Source of the DNA: an uncultured Candidatus Poseidoniales archaeon
GTDB taxonomy: Archaea > Thermoplasmatota > Poseidoniia > Poseidoniales > Thalassarchaeaceae
DNA: 10,321 nt
Direction: 5' to 3'
NCBI GenBank assembly: GCA_964645485.1
Contig: CAZXZO010000037.1
Location: forward strand, 1-10,321
The notes under the pieces were generated by a model. The model was not told the DNA's origin and searched no databases. It saw nothing but the letters and a program-made list of their open reading frames with translations. Position 1 is the first letter of the stretch, and every line of letters begins with the position of its first letter. This document shows positions 140 through 10,273 of the stretch, piece after piece. A program made the position numbers and the translations under genes.

Positions 140-2035
140 TTAGGGTGCTGGGCGAAGCCTAGTTGCAAAAGTTTTCGTTACTCTCGCTTGAAGTACAATT
201 TGGCCGTATTGATCCTTTGCCTGGGCCCCCACAATTACAACTTCGTCACCCCTTTCAGGGTCATATCCTTCAAGGACAAAGCGTGATTTTTCATCTCCTC
301 CCCAGACTTGAAATGATGCCGAACCAGTATCATCAATCAATTTAGCAGCCCATTTTCCTTCTTGATGATTAAAGTTGAATAAGCGGGCGTGAACGTTGTA
401 CTCCTGTGGAATTAATTTCTCAAACAACACATCGTCCGGTGATCCAGTTGGTGCTAGTTCGATGGTCCCGCTTGATGAAACGTCAAGTCGTTTGTGGGCA
501 CCTAGAGATTTCTTCCACCCAGAAGCAATAATCCCATTTCTAATTCGAATAGTTGCGCCGTGTTCGAAACCAAATGGAATGTTTGGGCTATCTTGTCTGA
601 TAACAACAGCCAACCATTCCCCTTGACCTAAATCAAGAAAGAACTCAAGATATTCTTTCTCAAACTTTGGCCATTGTTTTACCATATTTGGTTCGCGAAC
701 GGTTCCCCTTACAGTTACGAATGGGTCAATCTCTACAATTGGTGTGCAATTTACTTGTGCCTCTGATGTTGGAGAAAATTTAGTTGAGCCTCCCTTCAAT
801 AATTCTTCCTTATGTGGTGAAGCACTACAAACAAGTTGATACTCACATGAATCACATCTTGCCATTCCTGTAAACGGTGGTGAGTCTGTAAGGACCCCAC
901 CTGGTGCAAAAGTCCTGACTGGAGCTGGATTTCCTGGGTAATCACTTTCAAGATTTTGTTCCGACATTTTGAGTTTCTCATGAAGTGGCTTGAGACGATT
1001 TTCAAGCCTAAGTAATGATTTTTCATCAGGCAGATGGATCTTTTTTCTAACTGGTACTCCTAGATACCAAATTTCTAATTCTGAAACCAACTCTTTTCTG
1101 TCGTGCGTACTCCACCAAAGGTAAGCATAAGTGGCTAATTGTTCAGGATAGCCGAAGGAGAAATCCGAAGTTCCAACACTTGCTTTCACATCATGGATTC
1201 TAGGGCTGCCTGTCCATCTATAGACTAAATCATACTCCCCCTGTAACCAGCCTTCTGGATGTATTGCTGCTAAAGCAAAAAGCCCGGCATCAGGGTCGCA
1301 GAACCATGGCCTTGCGACCTCCCATGCTTCAACTAGAGTGATTTCACCATCCGATTCAGCACATGGGTGAGCAATTGAATGGTCATAAGGAAAGCCATCT
1401 GGTGCTGGCCATTTTGGTCGATTCTTACCTGCCCGCCAATCCTTGAATGTTGGGCCACCATTTGCTTTCATGCAATCTTCCACTTCGTCAAGATGGAATT
1501 CAATTCCAGCAAACACCATTTGGCATGCTTCTTCCTTTCGTTTTTCTTCAAAAACATCCCAATCTCCTACCCTGTTAGGGTCTTCCAACCATTCCTTTTT
1601 CGCCTGTGCCCATTCCCTTTCAAAGTGAATCCTGGCCCTTGCGCCAGCCCATGTTGTAATCTGTAGTCGTTCTTTTGGCCATTCTGATGTGTCTAGAGTT
1701 GGAAGATTTTGTCCAGGCCAAATGGCATCTGACTGAGTTGAAGGACGCGCAACTAAATTCCCAGTGCCTGAAATATCAACCTCTTCTAAAGGTGAATCAA
1801 AAATTTCAGATGGCGAGTCATGCGGGACTAATACTGGAGAATCTCGCATAACTCGATTTAATGCGCCTTCAACAGCATGACCCATTGCAAAAATTGGTGG
1901 AGAGCCACCTAGTAATCCAAGAATATAGCGATTATACCACATTTTTGGACAGCGGCGATGCATATCGGCTTGTGTGTGTGAAAGCCTAGCGTAAGGACCA
2001 ACAGGGTCATCACTTGGTGGGTCCAAGACCGGCAT
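140..2035 (-). CDS. Cas4/AddB-like Fe-S PD-(D/E)XK nuclease with two C-terminal OB folds (downstream paralog, 631 aa)
   Basis: N-terminal RLS..RCP..W with C29; helix motif GHAVEGAL; GEYD269LV, IHD282VK284, Q299LATY303 (RecB-family QxxxY); C394xxC397x5C403 triad. OB-like segments ~438-530 (IVEIDPFVTVRGTV) and ~545-631 (KLIDDTGSASFQVWG, ERGDEVVIVG). RBS GAGGG 4 nt before the ATG. Confidence 0.85.
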   Translation of the reverse strand: MPVLDPPSDDPVGPYARLSHTQADMHRRCPKMWYNRYILGLLGGSPPIFAMGHAVEGALNRVMRDSPVLVPHDSPSEIFDSPLEEVDISGTGNLVARPSTQSDAIWPGQNLPTLDTSEWPKERLQITTWAGARARIHFEREWAQAKKEWLEDPNRVGDWDVFEEKRKEEACQMVFAGIEFHLDEVEDCMKANGGPTFKDWRAGKNRPKWPAPDGFPYDHSIAHPCAESDGEITLVEAWEVARPWFCDPDAGLFALAAIHPEGWLQGEYDLVYRWTGSPRIHDVKASVGTSDFSFGYPEQLATYAYLWWSTHDRKELVSELEIWYLGVPVRKKIHLPDEKSLLRLENRLKPLHEKLKMSEQNLESDYPGNPAPVRTFAPGGVLTDSPPFTGMARCDSCEYQLVCSASPHKEELLKGGSTKFSPTSEAQVNCTPIVEIDPFVTVRGTVREPNMVKQWPKFEKEYLEFFLDLGQGEWLAVVIRQDSPNIPFGFEHGATIRIRNGIIASGWKKSLGAHKRLDVSSSGTIELAPTGSPDDVLFEKLIPQEYNVHARLFNFNHQEGKWAAKLIDDTGSASFQVWGGDEKSRFVLEGYDPERGDEVVIVGAQAKDQYGQIVLQARVTKTFATRLRPAP

Positions 2036-2039
2036 CGTT

Positions 2040-2044
2040 CCCTC
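2040..2044 (-). promoter_or_regulatory. Shine-Dalgarno-like RBS for the downstream nuclease
   Basis: GAGGG-aacg-ATG in a 41-bp intergenic gap; consistent with a bicistronic mRNA. Confidence 0.55.
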
Positions 2045-2076
2045 TTAGCGGCCAAGGTTCTTCAAGAGTTCGCCAA

Positions 2077-3975
2077 TTATTGCTCTTTGACTTCAAGTCG
2101 AGTATTGCGTTGGTCAATTCTTACTTGGGGAACTCCATCTCTCCATCCTAATTCAGCGGCTAGAATCCGTACAATATCGCCAACTTTTAATTTTTGAAAA
2201 GTTCTAGTGATTGCTGAACCAAAGGCTACAACTTCGACAACTGATTCTCCGTCCCATATGTGGCAGGTTGACATTGACCAAGGCTTCCCTCTAGCGTTTA
2301 CCCCACTGTGACCACCTCTGCTAACAACCTGCCCAGATAAGTTAGCCTTGGTGGGAATTAATCCTAATCTAGTAAATTCAACATCTGCTACTTCGTCGGC
2401 TGGTTTGATTGAACTGTGTTCATCAAGATATAATCTAGTCATTCTTCGCCACACACCTGGGGCTACGTCGAGTAACGCTAATTCTGTACCTGAAGGAATT
2501 TCTCCGAATGATTCAGCACCCATCTCTTCAATAGTCACATTTGTACTACCTACCGCAATTGTTGCTCCTCGTACTTCTTCGCCATAGTGGTTTGAGAGTG
2601 GACCCCATTGTCCCTTCACCTCACCCTTTACATTGAGTCGTTGAGGTATTTCAGAAATCATCGTGCAAGGTGGTTTTTGTGTCAATGCCGCAACCAAATT
2701 CTCAGAATTTCCGAGTTCAGGTGGCGTTAATGCCCCAAGCGCTATCGCTTGCATTTTTTCTGGTGCTCCATCACAAAATGCGGCCGCAGTACATCGTTTA
2801 CAGGTCAAGGCTTTTGCCTCTTTTTCATCATCAACAGGTAATGCTTTTCCTCCCGGGGAGTGGGTTAACCAAGGTGCAGGGTCGGCTGGTGCGAGGTGAG
2901 TTGGATGCAGTCCAGAAAGAGTCATTTGTTGGTGAATATTTTTCCAACGAGCAGATTCTGATTTGAGAGTTTCATCGTCTAGTAAATCAATGATTTTTCG
3001 GTGTGGCCCATTCAAATACCATCCTTCAAGGCCTGAAAGTTCACCACCACTTTCGCCTTTATTCGGTCTTCCTGAGTGGGTGCGGGTAATTCCCCATAGC
3101 CATTGGTAAAACCGAAGTTGATTGGCTAATCCAGCAGAATATCCGCTAGTTCCTGCGCTTGCCTTAATGTCACAGATTCTTACAGTTCCATCCCATCGGT
3201 GAACTAAATCCATCTCACCAGCGGCCCAACCATCGGGATGGAAGAGCCTTTGAGGGGCGGTAATTCTTGGGTCTTTGACCCAAGGTCTAGCAATTTCCCA
3301 AGCCTCCCAGATAGTGACATCACCTGATTTTTCAAATCCCGAAGCAGCAACTCGATTAGCCTCTTCACCAGGTTTCACAGGTTCTTCATCCCAGCAAGGT
3401 GCTGGCACTGTGAAAGGGTCACCACCTTTTCTGTAAGAATTGAGATGTGGCCCACCTCCAGCGTTGAAGCAGTTTTCAACTTCCTCTAATTGTAATTTGA
3501 TTCCTCCGCGTATTAGATTTTCAATTCGCTCATCTTTGACTTCGGCAATATCTCTGCCGGCGGCTTTCCACTGAGTTGCATCCCAACGCACTTGTAAGAG
3601 CCTCTGAACTTCCCCAACCAGTGAAGGAATAACCAATTCCATCCAATGTGAAATTGATTCTAGATCTGAGATAATGACTTCGTCATTGGGGCTAATTTTT
3701 CCCAATCCGTTTTCTTGGCGACTAAAGTTCACCCATTCTGCTAGCCCGGGCATCGCCGTACCGTTTTCAGGAAAACGTTGTATGAAAAGACCACAGAGAG
3801 CATCTTCAACAACCAATCCAATTATCATCTCAGGATTAGTGGCATCATTGAGTCCGATTCTTCTACGATAATGCCATTGACGAGGACAACGCTCCCATGT
3901 GACCAAGCCACTTGCTGAAATTCGGCGTCTACTCTTACCTAGATATCCTGCGCTTGGTGGTAGAACAACTGGCAT
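2077..3975 (-). CDS. Cas4/AddB-like Fe-S PD-(D/E)XK nuclease with two C-terminal OB folds (upstream paralog, 632 aa)
   Basis: RIS..RCP..W with C30; GLVVEDAL; GEMD256LV, ICD269IK271, Q286LRFY290; C392xxC395x5C401. RPA-like OB segments ~446-525 (MISEIPQRLNVKGEV, VWRRMTRLYLDEHSSI) and ~543-630 (ANLSGQV, HIWDGESVVEVVAFG, LKVGDIVRI, GWRDGVPQVRI). Confidence 0.85.
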   Translation of the reverse strand: MPVVLPPSAGYLGKSRRRISASGLVTWERCPRQWHYRRRIGLNDATNPEMIIGLVVEDALCGLFIQRFPENGTAMPGLAEWVNFSRQENGLGKISPNDEVIISDLESISHWMELVIPSLVGEVQRLLQVRWDATQWKAAGRDIAEVKDERIENLIRGGIKLQLEEVENCFNAGGGPHLNSYRKGGDPFTVPAPCWDEEPVKPGEEANRVAASGFEKSGDVTIWEAWEIARPWVKDPRITAPQRLFHPDGWAAGEMDLVHRWDGTVRICDIKASAGTSGYSAGLANQLRFYQWLWGITRTHSGRPNKGESGGELSGLEGWYLNGPHRKIIDLLDDETLKSESARWKNIHQQMTLSGLHPTHLAPADPAPWLTHSPGGKALPVDDEKEAKALTCKRCTAAAFCDGAPEKMQAIALGALTPPELGNSENLVAALTQKPPCTMISEIPQRLNVKGEVKGQWGPLSNHYGEEVRGATIAVGSTNVTIEEMGAESFGEIPSGTELALLDVAPGVWRRMTRLYLDEHSSIKPADEVADVEFTRLGLIPTKANLSGQVVSRGGHSGVNARGKPWSMSTCHIWDGESVVEVVAFGSAITRTFQKLKVGDIVRILAAELGWRDGVPQVRIDQRNTRLEVKEQ

Positions 3976-4076: not shown

Positions 4077-5630
4077 ATGAATACATCTTGGTTATTGATA
4101 ACAGTGATTTTTTTCCTTCCATCTCTGAGTTTAGTTTCTGCTTCGAGCGAAAATTACGCTGAATCTAATTCCGCCGACATTTTTACTGAGGACACCGATT
4201 CTACATCTGATATTGATTATGGCTGGGTAGCTGGGGCTTATCCAAGCGGAATAAATGTAATAGATTGTGCAAATGAACAATTTTCTGGTGTAGGTATGTC
4301 TTTCTGTCCTAAATATGGGCCAGTAATCGTGACTGCATCTCCATTCCTAAACCCCGACTGTAGTCAATCATATGTCTCTTCAACCATCCCAGGTGCTGAA
4401 CCCTTAATTATCAACCCTTTAATTGGTGACAGAGGTTCACTATATAACTCTCAATCGCATGTTTATCGACTACAAGATTCTCAAATTTGGTTAAAACATT
4501 GTTTATTTCCTATATATCAAAATCTGAATGGAAATAATATAAATTATAACTTTATTATTTATGACGATAGGACAGGAGAATTGCCTCATGCAGGGATATT
4601 CCACCCAGAGGACTGGGCTGTAAATGTTGTACTTGATGCGGCAGAATATGATCAACCATCTCTTTTCGATCTGACATTTGAGAGTTTCATTCCTCACGAC
4701 ACAATATTAAACGAATCCGGTTATCAAAATGGCTCGAGCACTATACATATATCGAATACAAATTACTATGCTGGTTTTGGTACATACTTAGGTAGGTGGA
4801 TGAGAGAAACCACATTATATGCATACGTGTATCATGATGAAAACTTAAATCAACAAATGAACCAGTATGCATTCTTTACAGCCTACTTTAAATCTAATGA
4901 TTATCAAGGATATTATGATATATCACCCGATTTGAATAATCCAGCCCCTCAATCTAGTAATCCAGATGCATACAACGATATTCCAAAAAGGGCAATATCT
5001 GATTGGAATCTAAATATTCGAGATAAGAAGTTCGGGAAAGGAGATTGTGATAAAATTGGGACAGGAAATAAGACTTCGATGAAACAAAAGACATTATTGA
5101 GGGGGAAGAGTAGTTTGGCTGACGGCCCGATGTTTTATCCATACGGTTCACAAACTAAGGATTGGCGAACACATGGAGCGGGAGTTGAATTTTATTTATC
5201 AGTAAACTTTGATAAATACAATTGTGCATCAAAAAGCAGATCTTTACAGGTGGTATATTCAAATTCAATAGAATCATATAATGGTCAGTCATTTAATTCT
5301 AATCGGGGATCGTTCGTTCCTCCCACAACAGTTTACTGCAATAATTACGATGTAAATAATATTTACATTCCTTCCAAATCTTGTGAATTGAAAATCAAAA
5401 TGGGATTAGGTGGCGGTAGGGAACAGTTTATTTTTCAAAGCGTATCTAGAAACTATACAAAATTTGATTCATCTGATGAGCCCATTATTCCAGTGGGTCA
5501 AGTGATGCTATATTCTGGTGCTTCAGGTTATTACAAAATTAATTTCATGGCCGAACTTGAACTCAAAGAAGGTTGGAAGATTATTGATAGAGAAACAATT
5601 GATAACACATTCTATGTTGTGGTGATATGA
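4077..5630 (+). CDS. Secreted hypothetical protein (517 aa)
   Basis: Hydrophobic N-terminal signal peptide (LLITVIFFLPSLSLVSA); 8 Cys; 4 N-x-S/T sequons in the mature part; Tyr/Asn-rich; no recognisable domain; no C-terminal anchor. Confidence 0.75.
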   Translation: MNTSWLLITVIFFLPSLSLVSASSENYAESNSADIFTEDTDSTSDIDYGWVAGAYPSGINVIDCANEQFSGVGMSFCPKYGPVIVTASPFLNPDCSQSYVSSTIPGAEPLIINPLIGDRGSLYNSQSHVYRLQDSQIWLKHCLFPIYQNLNGNNINYNFIIYDDRTGELPHAGIFHPEDWAVNVVLDAAEYDQPSLFDLTFESFIPHDTILNESGYQNGSSTIHISNTNYYAGFGTYLGRWMRETTLYAYVYHDENLNQQMNQYAFFTAYFKSNDYQGYYDISPDLNNPAPQSSNPDAYNDIPKRAISDWNLNIRDKKFGKGDCDKIGTGNKTSMKQKTLLRGKSSLADGPMFYPYGSQTKDWRTHGAGVEFYLSVNFDKYNCASKSRSLQVVYSNSIESYNGQSFNSNRGSFVPPTTVYCNNYDVNNIYIPSKSCELKIKMGLGGGREQFIFQSVSRNYTKFDSSDEPIIPVGQVMLYSGASGYYKINFMAELELKEGWKIIDRETIDNTFYVVVI

Positions 5631-7132
5631 AAGTTATTGATTATAGAATCTTAGCGACAATTCTTGTTGTGACAATTTTTCTCGGTAGCAATCTTTCTCT
5701 ATCTCAGGCTGAATACCGAGAACCAACACCTAATTTTAATGATAGTATCTTGGTTGGAGATGAATTAGCGGTCACCCTATGTACAAATTCGGTTATATGG
5801 CCAAATGAGACTGCTCAGAATTCTTCAAATAATCTCCCATACCGTTTTTTCTTGATTGACACCAAGGATTCTACTGAAACATCAATTCAGATAATCCCTA
5901 CTCTACCAAATCACCTATTAGGCCAATCTTGTGCACCTTTTATTGAATATTTATCAGATTATGACAAGTATTTACTTCCAGTTACTTATGATTATTACCC
6001 TGATGGAGAGGGTTGTGGTCTAGATGTATTATTAATCAATCAGGATCATATTGAGATTGTTGCAGAAATAATAGTGGCAGAATCATATTTCTGTTTGCCT
6101 CCTTATCCATATGAATTTCAGTCAGGGAATAGTGTTGCGTTGTTACAAATATCGGGAGGAAACATAATTTTACATAGTGGTGAGAGAATAGAAACAACCA
6201 ATTATTCACATTCAGGTGTGATGACAATCCTCTTTACACCATCGGCTAACGGTACTTTGGAAGCATCAATAATTACTATTCCGCGACCCGATTATTCTGA
6301 ACAAGGGATAATTATTTCAGATATAATGGCATTAGAATTTGTGGGTGATAAACTTTACACTGTTTTCGCAACTACTGATGGATCGTTTCGTGATAATGAG
6401 AACAGGATTGTAGTTGCCAACTACCATGTCAATGGTACCATTCAGTACAACACATCAAGAATTGTGGAATTTGATAGCAATGTTTTTGGCGCTGATATAA
6501 CGCACTTTGACAATAATATTTACATCATAGCACCATCAACTCGCGAAGAAAAAAATGTAAAAGGAGTTCCTATTCATTTGAAATCTTTAGAATGGTCCAC
6601 TTTTCTAGCAAAGACGGATGTGAATCTTAGTAATGTTGAGATTTTGAATCTGGAGTTTCCAACTGATAGACAATTGAATACAATAGATATGTTGGATGAA
6701 GACACAATCTTTATTTCTTCAAATACTATTCATGAAAACTTTACTTCTGAATCTGACGGGTTGTTAATTACACTAGGGAAAGAGGGGTGTTTTTCGTTGC
6801 ATCAAAACATTGATTTTTCAATTCTTAGAATTGCAAATATTGATGGACGAAAACTGGAATCAGGTGAATTTGTGTACCTAACGGAGTATGAATTATCCGG
6901 CTCAGATGTCATTAGACAATGGAACTTACCCCCAACAAATTTAACTGCAACATTAGTGAAAGAGCCAAAAATTAACAGTAACGGTGAATCTTCTTGCACA
7001 ATTGTTGAGCAGACTAGAACCCCACTCGGTACGATAATTTTTCAATTAACCGTGCCCATTCTTGGGGTATTCGTAGTTAGTCTAATTTCAGGTCGAATAA
7101 TTAGAACAAGTATTTCCCGGGTTCGTAAGTAA
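5627..7132 (+). CDS. Membrane-anchored surface glycoprotein, probable beta-propeller (501 aa)
   Basis: ATGA overlap with the upstream gene; signal peptide; blade-like motifs about every 55-65 aa; 10 sequons in the mature part; 6 Cys; C-terminal hydrophobic helix (~468-488) followed by a basic tail (RIIRTSISRVRK). Confidence 0.75.
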   Translation: MKVIDYRILATILVVTIFLGSNLSLSQAEYREPTPNFNDSILVGDELAVTLCTNSVIWPNETAQNSSNNLPYRFFLIDTKDSTETSIQIIPTLPNHLLGQSCAPFIEYLSDYDKYLLPVTYDYYPDGEGCGLDVLLINQDHIEIVAEIIVAESYFCLPPYPYEFQSGNSVALLQISGGNIILHSGERIETTNYSHSGVMTILFTPSANGTLEASIITIPRPDYSEQGIIISDIMALEFVGDKLYTVFATTDGSFRDNENRIVVANYHVNGTIQYNTSRIVEFDSNVFGADITHFDNNIYIIAPSTREEKNVKGVPIHLKSLEWSTFLAKTDVNLSNVEILNLEFPTDRQLNTIDMLDEDTIFISSNTIHENFTSESDGLLITLGKEGCFSLHQNIDFSILRIANIDGRKLESGEFVYLTEYELSGSDVIRQWNLPPTNLTATLVKEPKINSNGESSCTIVEQTRTPLGTIIFQLTVPILGVFVVSLISGRIIRTSISRVRK

Positions 7133-7158: not shown

Positions 7159-8931
7159 TCAACTGTAGTAGTAATCATCGTTCGCTTTCTGTTCACGGTC
7201 TTTTTGGCTGGATTCTTTATTGATACGTGGTCGCTTTGAATCATGATCTCTACGGAAAGTAACCCCCACTCCTTTCAAAAACCGGTTCATTCCCTTGCGA
7301 AGTGATAGTGGGCCAATAGCAGAACCTGCGGTTCCCCCTTCACCCTCAAACACAAGTAAAGAGTCACTTACGATATCAATGAAATATATGTCATGGTCAA
7401 TCACCATCGCTGATTTTTCATTAGATTCCATGGTTCGCCTGATGGCCTTAGCGGCCTCCATTCTTGCATTAGCATCCAAATGAGCACTTGGTTCATCTAA
7501 CAAATAAATGTCAGCATCTCTTCCAAGGCAGATTACAATCGAAACCGCTTGTAATTCCCCCCCAGAAAGACGAGATGCATCAAGTTCCAACAATTTGTCA
7601 ACTTCTAGTGGTCTAACAACTCTAGTTTGAAATTCACCGACATGCCAAGAACTTCCAATTTCAGCATCTAGCCATTCACGTACAGAACCAGGGAATTCGG
7701 CAGTAATGTGTTGTGGCTTATAGGAAACCTTTGCCTCCATGGTGCACCATCCAGCGTCCATTTCTAATTCACCAGCAAATATCTTGGCTAGCGTAGTTTT
7801 CCCAGTTGCATTAGGTCCAACGACTCCAACCACTTCCGTTTCATGTAATGTGCCTGTACCAGTTGTGAGTTTGAAATCACCGAGTTTTTTCTCCAAATCT
7901 CCCCATTCTAGTATTGGTAATCCAACCGCCTCCTCACGGATTGAACCTCTTACGAAAGAGATTGGTTTATCGCGAATCCGTACATTCTCCTCAACCAAAA
8001 ATCCGTCAAGATAAGCATTGATTGCTTTTCTAGTTGAACGGGCAGGCGTGAAGATTCCAAAAGCCGCCCGAGTTCCATAGACGATGTGGACAAGGTCGCA
8101 CAGAACGTCGAGAATAGCCAAGTCGTGCTCAATCACGATGACTCTTTTTCCTTCGGAAAGATTTTGCAATATTTTGACGATTCTCATTCTCTCAAAAATG
8201 TCAAGATAAGAAGACGGCTCATCAAAGAAATATACATCCGCCTCTTTCAATAATGTAGCGGCGATTGCAACTCTCTGCAATTCGCCGCCAGAAAGTTGAG
8301 GCAAATTTCTCTCCATCAAATGGTCGATTCCTAAGTCAGATGTCACTTCAGCCAATGCGTCTCTCTCGTCAACAGTAGTCAACAATTCACCGACTTGACC
8401 CTTGAACGCTTTAGGAATATGGTCAACATATTGTGGTTTGAGAGCCACCCTAACCCCTGTGCCAGCCACTAGTTCAAGGTAATCTCGTAACTCTCCTTTT
8501 GGTAGGCTCCCTAGAATCTCGTCCCACTCAGCCGCTTCAATATGCCAATCTCCCAAGTTAGGCGTGATGCCTCCTGAGAGAATGTTGATCGCAGTTGATT
8601 TCCCCATCCCATTTTGACCTAGGATACCCACAACTTGTTCTTCACGCGGGGCTGGTAGGCGGAAAAGTCGGAATCCATTTCTTCCATAACGATGAATCAT
8701 GTCAGATTTCAATTCTTCTGGCAGATTTTGAATTACTAATGCATCGAAAGGACATTTGTTAACACAAATTCCACAGCCAATGCAAAGTTGCTCTGAAATT
8801 ATCGGCTTCTTTGTTTTCTCATGGAAAACGATGCATTCCTGACCGTTGCGAACTGGTGGGCAGAAGGCATGACATTGGTCGTCGCATTTCTTTGGTTGAC
8901 ATCTGTCATCAAGAAGAACTGCTACCCTCAT
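7159..8931 (-). CDS. rli: Ribosome recycling ABC ATPase ABCE1/RLI (590 aa)
   Basis: N-terminal Fe-S domain (CQPKKCDDQCHAFCP, CIGCGICVNKCP); two NBDs with Walker A GQNGMGKST and GPNATGKTT, LSGGELQ twice, Walker B FFDEPS and LLDEPS; C-terminal TFRRD...RPRINK..S..DREQK hinge. Confidence 0.97.
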   Translation of the reverse strand: MRVAVLLDDRCQPKKCDDQCHAFCPPVRNGQECIVFHEKTKKPIISEQLCIGCGICVNKCPFDALVIQNLPEELKSDMIHRYGRNGFRLFRLPAPREEQVVGILGQNGMGKSTAINILSGGITPNLGDWHIEAAEWDEILGSLPKGELRDYLELVAGTGVRVALKPQYVDHIPKAFKGQVGELLTTVDERDALAEVTSDLGIDHLMERNLPQLSGGELQRVAIAATLLKEADVYFFDEPSSYLDIFERMRIVKILQNLSEGKRVIVIEHDLAILDVLCDLVHIVYGTRAAFGIFTPARSTRKAINAYLDGFLVEENVRIRDKPISFVRGSIREEAVGLPILEWGDLEKKLGDFKLTTGTGTLHETEVVGVVGPNATGKTTLAKIFAGELEMDAGWCTMEAKVSYKPQHITAEFPGSVREWLDAEIGSSWHVGEFQTRVVRPLEVDKLLELDASRLSGGELQAVSIVICLGRDADIYLLDEPSAHLDANARMEAAKAIRRTMESNEKSAMVIDHDIYFIDIVSDSLLVFEGEGGTAGSAIGPLSLRKGMNRFLKGVGVTFRRDHDSKRPRINKESSQKDREQKANDDYYYS

Positions 8932-8935
8932 TTAC

Positions 8936-8942
8936 TCACCTC
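8936..8942 (-). promoter_or_regulatory. Shine-Dalgarno of ABCE1
   Basis: GAGGTGA-gtaa-ATG, matching the archaeal anti-SD consensus. Confidence 0.8.
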
Positions 8943-8983
8943 TATTCTTTTCGGCTTGGATTCATTGTTTCATGCTTACTGCT

Positions 8984-9001
8984 CCCATCCTATAAGATGG
9001 G
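8984..9001. promoter_or_regulatory. Inverted repeat CCCATC-N6-GATGGG enclosing a putative TATA (minus-strand TTATAG)
   Basis: Perfect 6-bp arms at 8984-8989 and 8996-9001; TATA-like loop about 60 nt upstream of the ABCE1 ATG. Confidence 0.45.
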
Positions 9002-9010
9002 CGTTTTCAA

Positions 9011-10273
9011 TTACAGACGGAAAAACCGCTGCTTGGCATAGATGGCTGCTGCTAAGGTCACTTTCTCAACTTTTGAAAGTTTGATTTGACCGTGGAAGAT
9101 ATTGCCATCTCTTTTCTTAATTTTCTTCAATATTGAACCATAAAATGCCATCATCGCGGCTGGCGAATATCGGGCTTTGCGGTTAAGAAGTGGCAACAAT
9201 TTGAGAGACCGCTTGTGATAAGTTTCAATCTTTTCAATGAATTCAGCAGAGAATGCGTGCCATCGCTTGTCATTTGCCAAGTCACCTGATAATTCACTTG
9301 GCTTTATTCCATGCCTTTCCAAGTCTTCCAAAGGCAAGTAGACTCGATTTCTACCAGCATCTTCAGCAACATCTCTCAAGATATTTGTCATCTGCATGAA
9401 AATCCCCCATGACTCAGCATATTTTACCGCCAATGGGTCATCATAATCGTATATCTCAATGCAAACAAGTCCGACAGTGGAAGCAACTCGGTAACAGTAT
9501 TTGTACAGGTCATCAAATGTTCTGTAACGGTTAGTATAGAGGTCATCCTCCATTCCCGAAATCAAGTCATCAAGGTGTTCTCTTGGAACATCAAATCGTG
9601 AAACAGTGTCTTTGAGAGCCATGAAAATTGGGTCGGTAGATGCGTAGCAATTGTAGGCGGTGGACAACTTTTTGCGGAAAAAGAATAGTTGGGCTAATTT
9701 GTCTCGGTATGTTGGTGCGTCTAACACACTCTTGTCTCCAGTCAACAACTCGAGGCTTTCTCGGTACTCCTTCGCTTCTGGGTCTTGGGCGCCTTCACTA
9801 CCTGGGAACACATCCACATAATCGCCATCAGCAATGTCATCTGCTCGGCGGCAAAATGCATAATATGCACACATTGCCTTACGTTGTTCATCTGGTAGAT
9901 ACTTGAAAGAGTGGTAGAAGTTACCCGCTTCTTTACGAGTTAGAAGTTCACAATAGGCATACGCCGCATCCATCATTTCTTGAGGTACATTTTCTTCTTC
10001 CCAAATGGGTGCTTCGATATGGGCAAATGGGTTAACTAATTCTGCTTCAAAATCAAGACCAGCCATAAAAGCTGGAATCTCTTTCAACATATCAACAGCC
10101 GTAATACTGACCGCTTTTACCGCTTCACGTGAGATTTCAACTGCTGAACGAATCTGTTCTAATCGCTCTTGTTGATTCGAGTTCAGACCGCTTTCAGATA
10201 CACCATCAAAGATGTGCGAATCACCGAAGTTAGCGGTATCTGACATACGCCTCATTGAAAGTCTGTTTAACAT
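9011..10273 (-). CDS. crtB: Phytoene/squalene synthase family prenyltransferase (CrtB/HpnD-like); true start may be 10255 or 10246
   Basis: AYAYC..LTR..AGNFY..F..LP...R.A..A.YAFCR.ADDIAD (first Asp-rich motif), YC.RVASTVG, QMTNILRDVAED (second motif) and GRNRVYLP. Family call is firm; product specificity is inferred. Confidence 0.85.
   Translation of the reverse strand: MLNRLSMRRMSDTANFGDSHIFDGVSESGLNSNQQERLEQIRSAVEISREAVKAVSITAVDMLKEIPAFMAGLDFEAELVNPFAHIEAPIWEEENVPQEMMDAAYAYCELLTRKEAGNFYHSFKYLPDEQRKAMCAYYAFCRRADDIADGDYVDVFPGSEGAQDPEAKEYRESLELLTGDKSVLDAPTYRDKLAQLFFFRKKLSTAYNCYASTDPIFMALKDTVSRFDVPREHLDDLISGMEDDLYTNRYRTFDDLYKYCYRVASTVGLVCIEIYDYDDPLAVKYAESWGIFMQMTNILRDVAEDAGRNRVYLPLEDLERHGIKPSELSGDLANDKRWHAFSAEFIEKIETYHKRSLKLLPLLNRKARYSPAAMMAFYGSILKKIKKRDGNIFHGQIKLSKVEKVTLAAAIYAKQRFFRL

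What the first reader, a model, noticed from the sequence alone, without database searches (positions are those of the whole stretch)
140..3975. Tandem paralogous Fe-S nuclease-OB-OB pair: candidate helicase-free heterodimeric DNA-processing system
Seen: two adjacent co-oriented genes of 632 and 631 aa, 41 bp apart, with the same architecture. Both start MPV..PPS and share core blocks (EAWE[VI]ARPW..DP, 10/13 identical; HP.GW..GE.DLV.RW.G..RI.D.KAS.GTS, 21/32 identical) while the rest is strongly diverged, indicating an old duplication. Both keep D, DxK, QxxxY and all four Cys, so neither looks decayed. Established: paired RecB-family nuclease subunits occur in AddAB and AdnAB, but there they come with SF1 helicase domains, and Cas4 works with Cas1/Cas2. 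Neither partner type is present in this window. Inference: a pseudo-symmetric heterodimer with two active sites and four OB folds, acting in resection, flap/ssDNA processing, UV-damage repair or anti-viral DNA degradation. I do not recognise it as a described system, but I cannot run a novelty search.
Basis: partly seen in the sequence, partly recalled or inferred. Interest (0 to 1): 0.85.

Follow-up and report, generated by a model that had tools for sequence, protein, structure and literature searches.

The report
Paired iron-sulfur nucleases with OB folds
Two neighbouring sister genes of a Marine Group II archaeon each join a Cas4/AddB-type iron-sulfur DNA-cutting domain to two RPA-like single-strand-binding folds; the family is confined to this abundant ocean order, is unstudied, and most likely trims single-stranded DNA, but the two proteins have not been shown to need each other.

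Summary
Genes A (2077..3975, 632 aa) and B (140..2035, 631 aa) lie on the minus strand, 41 nt apart. They are full-length paralogs (28% identity, E 4e-49), both with intact RecB-family catalytic motifs and 1+3 cysteines. AlphaFold models (pLDDT 90) show a Cas4/AdnAB/AddB/Exo5/Dna2-like nuclease domain with a novel ~160-aa helical insert, followed by two RPA-like OB folds.

The family is restricted to Poseidoniales and was found in 61 of 61 high-quality genomes. It sits in a housekeeping operon directly behind ABCE1. In this window a 3.1-kb low-GC cassette has split that link.

The duplication predates the order, and both copies are under strong purifying selection (dN/dS about 0.07). The pair is not universal:
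- Seven streamlined genera keep only B.
- One lineage keeps only a cysteine-less A, with a DnaQ-like 3'-5' DNA exonuclease in B's slot.

A keeps conserved OB folds but an eroding Fe-S site. B shows the opposite pattern.

The genome also holds an AddAB-like helicase-nuclease elsewhere, and NurA was not found.

Most likely these are cooperating, motor-less ssDNA-end nucleases of genome maintenance. This scan reported the same family at least eight times before on other genomes.

The parts
2077..3975 (-). Gene A (P0001, 632 aa): Fe-S RecB/Cas4-family nuclease followed by two OB folds
   Evidence: ORF and translation. Pfam PDDEXK_1 35.2 bits and a tRNA_anti-codon OB hit at 563-621. AlphaFold2 pLDDT 90.1. 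Clade A in the tree.
2761..3975 (-). A nuclease domain (aa 1-405), including a helical insert at about aa 65-221 that the solved nucleases do not cover, and Cys 30/392/395/401
   Evidence: VIA-align: AdnAB nuclease domain Z 14.3 (232 aligned, rmsd 3.7), ACE1 Z 13.2, AddB Z 11.3, Dna2 Z 10.7, Cas4 Z 10.6, all spanning model residues about 8-405. Invariant E57, D256, D269, K271, Q286, Y290 and C169.
2080..2673 (-). A tandem OB folds (OB1 aa 435-530, OB2 aa 531-632)
   Evidence: Foldseek matches to RPA70 DBD-A/B, POT1, HIN-200 and Teb1, E 6e-9 to 1e-6. VIA Z 10-13.7. Mean pairwise identity 41-49% with 22 invariant positions, many aromatic.
2036..2076 (-). 41-nt A-B spacer with a purine-rich GAGG-type motif about 5 nt before the start codon of B
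   Evidence: Read directly from the sequence. A-B spacing is 0-61 nt in 15 of 18 paired loci; the rest are over-extended start calls or one 761-nt insert. Co-transcription is inferred.
140..2035 (-). Gene B (P0002, 631 aa): Fe-S RecB/Cas4-family nuclease followed by two OB folds
   Evidence: ORF and translation. Pfam PDDEXK_1 39.6 bits. AlphaFold2 pLDDT 90.4. Clade B in the tree.
815..2035 (-). B nuclease domain (aa 1-407), including a helical insert at about aa 65-233 and Cys 29/394/397/403
   Evidence: VIA-align: ACE1 Z 16.2 (239 aligned, rmsd 3.3), AdnAB Z 14.3, AddB Z 12.8, Exo5 Z 11.7, Cas4 Z 11.3, Dna2 Z 10.4. All catalytic residues invariant in 36 of 36 sequences; the three C-terminal Cys in 36 of 36 and C29 in 35 of 36, the exception being a 5'-truncated sequence.
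143..727 (-). B tandem OB folds (OB1 aa 437-530, OB2 aa 531-631), fast-evolving
   Evidence: VIA Z 9-12.4 to Teb1, HIN, RPA and SSB. Mean pairwise identity only 23-25% with 2 invariant positions, on the same 15 genomes where the A OB folds show 41-49%.
7159..8931 (-). ABCE1/RLI gene (P0005), the ancestral immediate upstream operon neighbour of A
   Evidence: Pfam ABC_tran, Fer4_RLI and Fer4. ABCE1, A and B are co-oriented in all 20 loci that carry an A gene. In the 16 junctions inspected, the ABCE1 stop lies about 5-13 nt before the conserved MPV start of A in most (10 measured) and up to about 40 nt in a few.
4077..7132 (+). Low-GC (35%) two-gene cassette (P0003, P0004; no Pfam family) inserted between ABCE1 and A in this genome only
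   Evidence: GC profile. No Pfam or NCBIfam hits. Absent from three genomes of the same genus, where ABCE1 abuts A (L084-L086).

Best explanation
A and B are two motor-less, single-strand-specific DNA nucleases of genome maintenance (repair or replication-intermediate processing), specific to Marine Group II archaea. In each protein, two RPA-like OB folds hold single-stranded DNA and feed an end or flap into a Cas4/AddB/Exo5/Dna2-type PD-(D/E)XK active site braced by an iron-sulfur cluster. The two paralogs work in the same pathway with a division of labour. A contributes the strongly constrained OB folds, that is, substrate binding and positioning. B contributes the strongly constrained Fe-S nuclease. 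They may form a complex, but each can function without the other.

Shown: domain architecture, catalytic conservation, distribution, synteny, selection and asymmetric conservation. Inferred: ssDNA as the substrate, end-threading, cooperation of the two proteins, and the cellular role.
For: Fold and motifs:
- Both nuclease domains match solved ssDNA-acting Fe-S RecB-family nucleases: ACE1 Z 16.2/13.2, AdnAB 14.3, AddB 12.8/11.3, Exo5 11.7, Cas4 11.3/10.6, Dna2 10.4/10.7.
- All catalytic residues are invariant.
- The C-terminal halves match tandem ssDNA-binding OB pairs of RPA70, POT1 and Teb1.

Housekeeping character:
- The family was found in 194 of 201 genomes of the order and in 61 of 61 high-quality ones.
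- The context is fixed and syntenic: ABCE1 upstream, PAC2 and eIF2-alpha downstream.
- dN/dS is 0.06-0.07.
- PADLOC gives only a domain-level hit to DruK, E 1e-4, and there is no match in phage records.

Same pathway and division of labour:
- On the same 15 genomes, the A OB folds are 41-49% identical with 22 invariant sites, against 23-25% and 2 sites in B.
- The B nuclease core has 36 invariant sites against 28 in A.
- The 4-Cys site is intact in all 36 B sequences, allowing for one truncated N-terminus. In A it is reduced to 3 Cys in 17 of 49 and to none in 5 of 49.
- In the clade that lost A, the OB2 of B is as conserved as its core (63% against 62%). In paired lineages it lags (32-40% against 50-56%).
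- In the lineage that lost B, a DnaQ/epsilon-like 3'-5' DNA exonuclease sits 14 nt behind A in the slot of B. This is seen on 4 contigs carrying 3 distinct A proteins.

Context in the genome: RadA is present and NurA was not found in 61 genomes although the controls were positive.
Against: - No biochemical or expression data exist, and no RNA run was listed.
- An AddAB-like helicase-nuclease pair is present in the same genomes. Double-strand-break resection may therefore already be covered, and the specific role of A and B stays open.
- OB folds of this type also bind RNA: aspartyl- and asparaginyl-tRNA synthetase anticodon domains score Z 10-13. The tight coupling to ABCE1 could point to RNA.
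- The division-of-labour argument rests on one loss of A and one loss of B, so n = 1 for each.
- Loss of A left no detectable relaxed patch on B.
Confidence: 0.55

Rival explanations
1. Obligate pseudo-symmetric A:B heterodimer. The two paralogs always act as one complex with two active sites and four OB folds, a helicase-free analogue of AddAB or AdnAB that cuts both strand polarities.
For: - The genes are adjacent, co-oriented and tightly spaced in every genome that has both.
- The two clades have mirrored topologies.
- Pairwise distances of A and B correlate beyond what ABCE1 explains, with a partial r of 0.57. This is weak mirror-tree evidence.
- Conservation is complementary and asymmetric.
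- The closest solved nuclease domains include those of the heterodimeric AdnAB and AddAB.
Against: - Seven genera, about 66 sampled genomes forming one clade inside B, keep B alone and away from ABCE1.
- One lineage keeps A alone with a DnaQ-like exonuclease.
- No conserved patch on B is relaxed after the loss of A.
- The only apparent A-B fusion (G130) is a run of N, not a real fusion.
- In AddAB and AdnAB the helicase lobes, not the nuclease domains, hold the subunits together (established knowledge).
Confidence: 0.25
2. RNA-directed nucleases linked to translation. The ABCE1-A-B operon would couple ribosome recycling or rescue to degradation of the released or stalled RNA, with the OB folds binding RNA.
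For: - In the junctions inspected, the ABCE1 stop mostly lies 5-13 nt before the start of A, with an SD-like GGTG/GAGG motif at the stop, in all three families of the order.
- eIF2-alpha and PAC2 lie downstream.
- The OB folds match tRNA-synthetase anticodon-binding domains as well as they match RPA.
Against: - All solved structural relatives of the nuclease domain act on DNA (ACE1 is an ssDNA endonuclease, PMC12094033).
- The gene that replaces B resembles DNA exonucleases (Pol III epsilon, PolC-exo, DinG-exo, ExoX), not RNases.
- The same co-directional gene string also holds phytoene synthases, so adjacency here mixes unrelated functions.
- In the seven B-only genera B is not next to ABCE1.
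- In the window genome itself the link is broken by a cassette.
Confidence: 0.08
3. An antiviral defence module that degrades invading single-stranded or replicating viral DNA.
For: - Cas4-family and ACE1 nucleases work in defence (PMC5704561, PMC12094033).
- There is a weak PADLOC hit of the A nuclease domain to DruK, E 1e-4.
- In this genome a variable low-GC cassette lies next to the pair.
Against: - The family is near-universal and vertically inherited across the order, at a fixed housekeeping locus.
- No cas, Argonaute, methylase or other defence gene is among the conserved neighbours.
- dN/dS of 0.07 shows no sign of arms-race evolution.
- B gives no PADLOC hit.
Confidence: 0.07

Closest known systems
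Nuclease domains of AdnAB / AddAB (bacterial helicase-nuclease end-resection machines; PDB 9np6, 6ppu, 3u44)
   Same: RecB-family PD-(D/E)XK fold with the Fe-S 'iron staple' cysteine pattern (1 + CxxCx5C). Z is 11-14 over about 230-250 residues. In both cases two paralogous nuclease-bearing subunits are encoded side by side.
   Different: There is no SF1 helicase or motor domain. Two OB folds take its place, and a ~160-aa helical insert sits in the nuclease domain. Either paralog can exist alone. A separate, genuine AddAB-like pair is present in the same genomes.
Cas4 / solo-Cas4 / ACE1 (small Fe-S PD-(D/E)XK ssDNA nucleases; PDB 9iab, 8d3l, 4ic1)
   Same: ACE1 is the best structural match for B (Z 16.2) and scores Z 13.2 for A. 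The catalytic motifs and cysteine pattern are the same. ACE1 is an ssDNA endonuclease (PMC12094033).
   Different: These proteins are three times larger, with two fused OB folds and a helical insert. No Pfam Cas_Cas4 (PF01930) hit was found. No cas or Argonaute genes are among the conserved neighbours.
Dna2 and Exo5 (eukaryotic Fe-S nucleases that thread ssDNA ends; PDB 5ean, 7lw7)
   Same: An Fe-S RecB-type nuclease is combined with OB or beta-barrel ssDNA-binding elements. Z is 10.4-10.7 for Dna2, with an alignment that runs into the OB region, and 11.7 for Exo5. The proposed logic is the same: an ssDNA binder plus an end-dependent nuclease.
   Different: There is no SF1B helicase. The OB folds are C-terminal and tandem. 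Pfam Dna2 (PF08696) gives no hit over its cut-off in these genomes, although that search was insensitive. There is no detectable sequence relationship beyond the shared nuclease fold.
RPA70 DBD-A/B, POT1, Teb1 (tandem OB ssDNA binders)
   Same: The C-terminal ~200 residues of both proteins fold as two consecutive OB barrels that match these pairs (Foldseek E 6e-9 to 1e-6; Z 10-13.7).
   Different: Here the OB pair is fused to a nuclease. Sequence similarity is marginal: PF01336 scores 22.5 bits, below its 27-bit cut-off, in A only. There is no trimerisation helix or zinc ribbon.

Membership tests
RecB/Cas4-like PD-(D/E)XK nucleases (Pfam PF12705 PDDEXK_1) | Profile match above the curated cut-off | tested here: met
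   A scores 35.2 bits and B 39.6 bits against a cut-off of 22.
RecB/Cas4-like PD-(D/E)XK nucleases (Pfam PF12705 PDDEXK_1) | Catalytic motifs: helix Glu, D, (D/E)xK, QxxxY | tested here: met
   A has E57, D256, D269, K271, Q286, Y290; B has E56, D269, D282, K284, Q299, Y303. They are invariant in 49 and 36 sequences respectively.
RecB/Cas4-like PD-(D/E)XK nucleases (Pfam PF12705 PDDEXK_1) | Four-cysteine Fe-S site (one N-terminal Cys plus CxxCx5C) | tested here: met
   The pattern is present in both window proteins. In B the three C-terminal Cys are in 36 of 36 sequences and the N-terminal Cys in 35 of 36 (one truncated sequence). Across clade A, 27 of 49 sequences have four Cys, 17 have three and 5 have none. 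Actual cluster binding cannot be tested here.
RecB/Cas4-like PD-(D/E)XK nucleases (Pfam PF12705 PDDEXK_1) | RecB-type nuclease fold | tested here: met
   Z is 10-16 to ACE1, AdnAB, AddB, Exo5, Cas4 and Dna2, covering model residues about 8-407.
CRISPR-associated Cas4 | Pfam Cas_Cas4 (PF01930) match and a cas1/cas2 neighbourhood | tested here: not met
   No PF01930 hit at E <= 0.1. The conserved neighbours are ABCE1, phytoene synthases, PAC2, eIF2-alpha, a GATase and similar genes, with no cas gene. CRISPR arrays were not searched for specifically.
AddAB / AdnAB helicase-nuclease | SF1 (UvrD-like) helicase or helicase-like domain in each subunit | tested here: not met
   A and B contain no UvrD/AAA helicase family. 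Real AddA-like (UvrD + PDDEXK_1, about 1660 aa) and AddB-like (about 1250 aa) genes lie elsewhere, at G000:C12, G003 and G027.
Dna2 | Pfam Dna2 nuclease domain (PF08696) plus an SF1B helicase | tested here: not met
   No helicase domain and no PF08696 hit in A or B. The fold resemblance is Z 10.4-10.7 only.
RPA-type OB fold (PF01336 and relatives) | Profile match above cut-off, or an OB-barrel fold | tested here: inconclusive
   By sequence, A scores 22.5 bits, below the 27-bit cut-off, and B has no hit. By fold there are clear tandem OB matches. ssDNA binding itself was not tested.
Known anti-phage defence systems (PADLOC-DB) | Match to a defence-system protein model together with its partner genes | tested here: not met
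   The only hit is a 52-residue match of A to the DruK nuclease domain (E 1e-4). B has no hit, and no partner genes are in the neighbourhood.

The most novel reading that the evidence does not exclude
The ABCE1-A-B operon is a functional unit. Under this reading A, together with B or with the DnaQ-like exonuclease that replaces B, forms a motor-less nuclease module coupled to ribosome recycling or rescue, and it degrades the nucleic acid released from stalled ribosomes. That would be the first Fe-S RecB-family nuclease acting in archaeal RNA or translation quality control.
Probability: 0.08. Interest if true: 0.85.

Novelty: new variant of a known kind. Interest (0 to 1): 0.55.

Why it matters
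Marine Group II archaea are among the most abundant archaea of the surface ocean, are uncultured, and their DNA-maintenance machinery is essentially unstudied. Here NurA was not found, a bacterial-type AddAB-like machine is present, and an order-specific pair of nuclease-OB-OB proteins is kept in every high-quality genome searched. The architecture replaces the helicase motor of AddAB, AdnAB and Dna2 with built-in RPA-like folds. It therefore offers a natural test of how far an Fe-S RecB-type nuclease can work without a motor.

The natural variants form a ready-made comparative series for biochemistry:
- the A+B pair;
- B alone;
- a cysteine-less A with a DnaQ-like exonuclease;
- A proteins with three cysteines.

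This series bears on subunit cooperation and on the role of the Fe-S cluster.

Tried and rejected
- Complex prediction (A 1-432 with B 1-436) was closed and the job was not sent. No interface test was possible.
- An apparent 1175-aa A-B fusion in G130 turned out to be a scaffold gap, a run of N across the junction. It is not a Rosetta-stone fusion.
- I searched for a patch on B that relaxed after the loss of A. Only 3 scattered positions turned up and no interface signal.
- RNA evidence: no RNA holder was listed.
- tblastn of B against phage records gave no match.
- The Rad50 zinc hook (PF04423) was not found in 5 genomes, but the control rang in only 3 of 14 genomes, so this is uninformative.
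- DUF87/HerA (PF01935) is unspecific: it rings in all 14 controls. Hits over the cut-off came only from the two f3 genomes, including an 837-aa protein.
- Pfam Dna2 gave no hit over its cut-off, with an insensitive control.
- The distant 400-477-aa relatives (P0163, P0165, P0191, P0236) are full PDDEXK_1 proteins of unknown origin. They are not the solo nuclease of Poseidoniales.
- A 572-aa protein in G196 that hit the OB part of the B profile is an RPA/SSB-like protein, not a B gene.
- My first ORF calls suggested a 4-nt overlap between ABCE1 and A. With the conserved MPV start the spacer is mostly about 5-13 nt, up to about 40 nt in a few loci.
- Literature searches found no description of this family.
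- NCBIfam gave only sub-threshold OB hits to HAN and RPA.

Full report
**What is in the window**

The 10.3-kb window is a whole contig (C37) of a 1.94-Mb, 82%-complete archaeal genome bin. Database relatives are named Thalassarchaeaceae, Poseidoniaceae or Thermoplasmatota, that is, Marine Group II / Poseidoniales.

Six genes are clear:
- B (140..2035, minus strand, 631 aa);
- A (2077..3975, minus strand, 632 aa);
- two plus-strand genes without any family in a 35%-GC stretch (4077..7132);
- ABCE1/RLI (7159..8931, minus strand);
- a phytoene/squalene synthase (9011..10273, minus strand).

**Checking the observation**

- A and B align end to end at 28% identity, E 4e-49.
- Both pass the Pfam PDDEXK_1 cut-off.
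- Both carry the helix Glu, D, DxK, QxxxY and the 1+3 cysteine pattern.
- AlphaFold2 models built on alignments of 49 and 36 homologs are confident: pLDDT 90.1 and 90.4, pTM 0.88.
- The N-terminal ~405 residues match the nuclease domains of ACE1 (Z 16.2 for B, 13.2 for A), AdnAB (14.3), AddB (12.8/11.3), Exo5 (11.7), Cas4 (11.3/10.6) and Dna2 (10.4/10.7).
- Only about 230-250 residues align in those matches. A helical insert of about 160 residues (about aa 65-225) is therefore not covered by the solved nucleases. It holds family-specific invariant residues, for example C169 in A and W129, R133 and H137 in B.
- The C-terminal ~200 residues are two consecutive OB barrels matching RPA70 DBD-A/B, POT1, Teb1 and HIN-200.

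**Distribution**

- A HMMER scan of 1.84 billion representative proteins with B found only 119 proteins at E <= 0.001, mostly fragments.
- In 201 genomes of the order, 194 have the family, including 61 of 61 high-quality ones.
- In the sister lineages of the class, only marginal hits appear, none better than E 2.6e-7.
- Full-length structural and feature look-alikes in the ESM Atlas are all Thermoplasmatota.
- No paper describing the family was found.

The family is an order-specific invention built from known domains.

**History of the pair**

A maximum-likelihood tree of 51 proteins splits A and B cleanly (SH-aLRT 100). Each clade repeats the f1/f2/f3 family structure, so the duplication predates the sampled order. 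Both genes are under strong purifying selection: dN/dS is 0.06-0.07 against three congeners, compared with 0.02-0.03 for ABCE1.

The pair is not universal.
- Seven f1 genera with 1.3-1.5-Mb genomes have a single gene. These genes form one clade inside B (support 99), which means a single loss of A.
- One f3 lineage (genus g23 plus environmental contigs) has only A, and B was not found with a B profile. That A has lost all four cysteines but keeps every catalytic residue.
- In that lineage, 14 nt downstream in the slot of B, lies a 279-aa DEDD exonuclease. Its best relatives are Pol III epsilon, PolC-exo, DinG-exo and ExoX, all DNA exonucleases.
- It is an extra paralog of a DnaQ-like gene that nearly all Poseidoniales carry elsewhere.
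- An apparent A-B fusion in G130 is a run of N.

**Asymmetry between the paralogs**

On the same 15 genomes:

| Region | A | B |
|---|---|---|
| OB folds, mean identity | 41-49% | 23-25% |
| OB folds, invariant sites | 22 | 2 |
| Nuclease core, invariant sites | 28 | 36 |

The four-cysteine site is intact in all 36 B sequences, apart from one truncated N-terminus. In A it drops to three Cys in 17 of 49 sequences (mostly f3) and to none in 5 of 49. Where A was lost, the OB2 of B is as conserved as its core (63% against 62%). In paired lineages it lags (32-40% against 50-56%).

I read this as sub-functionalisation within one pathway, with compensation after loss. It rests on single loss events and is an inference.

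**Genomic context**

In all 20 loci that carry an A gene, ABCE1 is the co-oriented upstream neighbour. Among the 16 ABCE1-A junctions inspected, the conserved MPV start of A lies about 5-13 nt after the ABCE1 stop in most (10 measured) and up to about 40 nt in a few. An SD-like GGTG/GAGG motif often overlaps the stop.

A and B are 0-61 nt apart in most loci. In the window a GAGG motif precedes the start of B. PAC2 and eIF2-alpha lie downstream on the other strand, and phytoene synthases lie upstream of ABCE1.

No helicase, cas or defence gene is among the conserved neighbours. In the B-only genera B follows a radical-SAM gene instead of ABCE1. In this window a 3.1-kb low-GC cassette, absent from three congeners, separates ABCE1 from A.

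This is a core housekeeping string rather than a mobile island. Because the string mixes unrelated functions, I give the ABCE1 adjacency little functional weight.

**Rest of the genome**

- RadA is present in 5 of 5 genomes.
- NurA was not found in 61 genomes (59 of them high quality), although the same search detects it in four control archaea.
- Poseidoniales, including this genome (contig C12) and a B-only genome, encode an adjacent pair elsewhere: an AddB-like protein (about 1250 aa, PDDEXK_1) and an AddA-like protein (about 1660 aa, UvrD helicase plus PDDEXK_1).
- 'Helicase-free' is therefore true of the locus but not of the cell. Bulk double-strand-break resection may belong to that machine.

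**Mechanism I commit to (confidence 0.55)**

A and B are motor-less nucleases specific for ssDNA ends or flaps. Their tandem OB folds bind ssDNA and present it to an Fe-S-braced RecB-type site, as RPA does for Dna2 or the helicase lobes do for AddB.

They act in genome maintenance, for example on flaps, gaps, or stalled-fork and post-resection ssDNA. They cooperate, with A dominant in binding and B in cutting, and B's role can be taken over by a 3'-5' DNA exonuclease.

Rivals:
- obligate heterodimer, 0.25;
- an RNA- or translation-linked role, 0.08;
- antiviral defence, 0.07.

The complex predictor was closed, so the heterodimer remains untested.

**Relation to earlier notes of this scan**

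The same family was reported at least eight times on other genomes, with similar readings. Several of those notes say that all Marine Group II archaea carry both genes, always behind ABCE1. My survey contradicts the words 'all' and 'always'. What this report adds:
- the B-only and A-plus-DnaQ configurations;
- the erosion of the Fe-S site in A;
- the asymmetric conservation of the two paralogs;
- the absence of NurA;
- the AddAB-like pair elsewhere in the genome.

Noticed in passing
window 4077..7132 (+): A two-gene cassette (517 and 501 aa; N-terminal hydrophobic signal-like segments; no Pfam or NCBIfam family) at 35% GC, against about 44% in the flanks. It sits on the opposite strand, between ABCE1 and gene A. 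It is absent from three genomes of the same genus, where ABCE1 abuts A.
   Followed up: partly
G000:C12:16700-25500 (L106:1702-10487); also L104 (G003) and L105 (G027): An adjacent AddB-like gene (about 1250 aa, PDDEXK_1) and AddA-like gene (about 1660 aa, UvrD helicase plus PDDEXK_1; NCBIfam addA and recB hits below cut-off). This is a bacterial-type helicase-nuclease pair in Marine Group II archaea.
   Followed up: partly
order-wide (61 genomes): NurA (PF09376) was not found in any of 61 Poseidoniales genomes (59 high quality), while the same search rings in four control archaea. RadA is present in 5 of 5.
   Followed up: partly
G003:C1:286859-288839; G027:C1:286807-288737; G002:C1:19599-22368; G012:C7:180800-183128: A solo ~390-480-aa PDDEXK_1 nuclease lies next to, and convergent with, the DnaQ-like DEDD exonuclease that nearly all Poseidoniales carry (119 of 121 genomes). 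This is a second nuclease-exonuclease neighbourhood.
   Followed up: no
L069 (G200:C65), between A (4546-6495) and B (7257-9143): In genus g24 a 761-nt insert with a 191-aa ORF separates A from B. It is the only paired locus sampled with a gene between them.
   Followed up: no
L083 (G130:C13) about 5960-6010: A run of N spans the A-B junction and creates a false 1175-aa fused reading frame.
   Followed up: yes
G115:C23:21116-22867 and G115:C40:615-2390: One genome of a B-only genus shows two full-length B-type genes on different contigs (E 1e-103 and 4e-96). This may be a recent duplication or a mixed bin.
   Followed up: no
window 9011..10273 (-) and neighbours in L084-L086: Two paralogous squalene/phytoene synthase genes (about 337 and 420 aa) precede ABCE1 in most f1 and f2 loci. 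In several f3 loci a ~975-aa PPDK_N/response-regulator protein takes that place.
   Followed up: no
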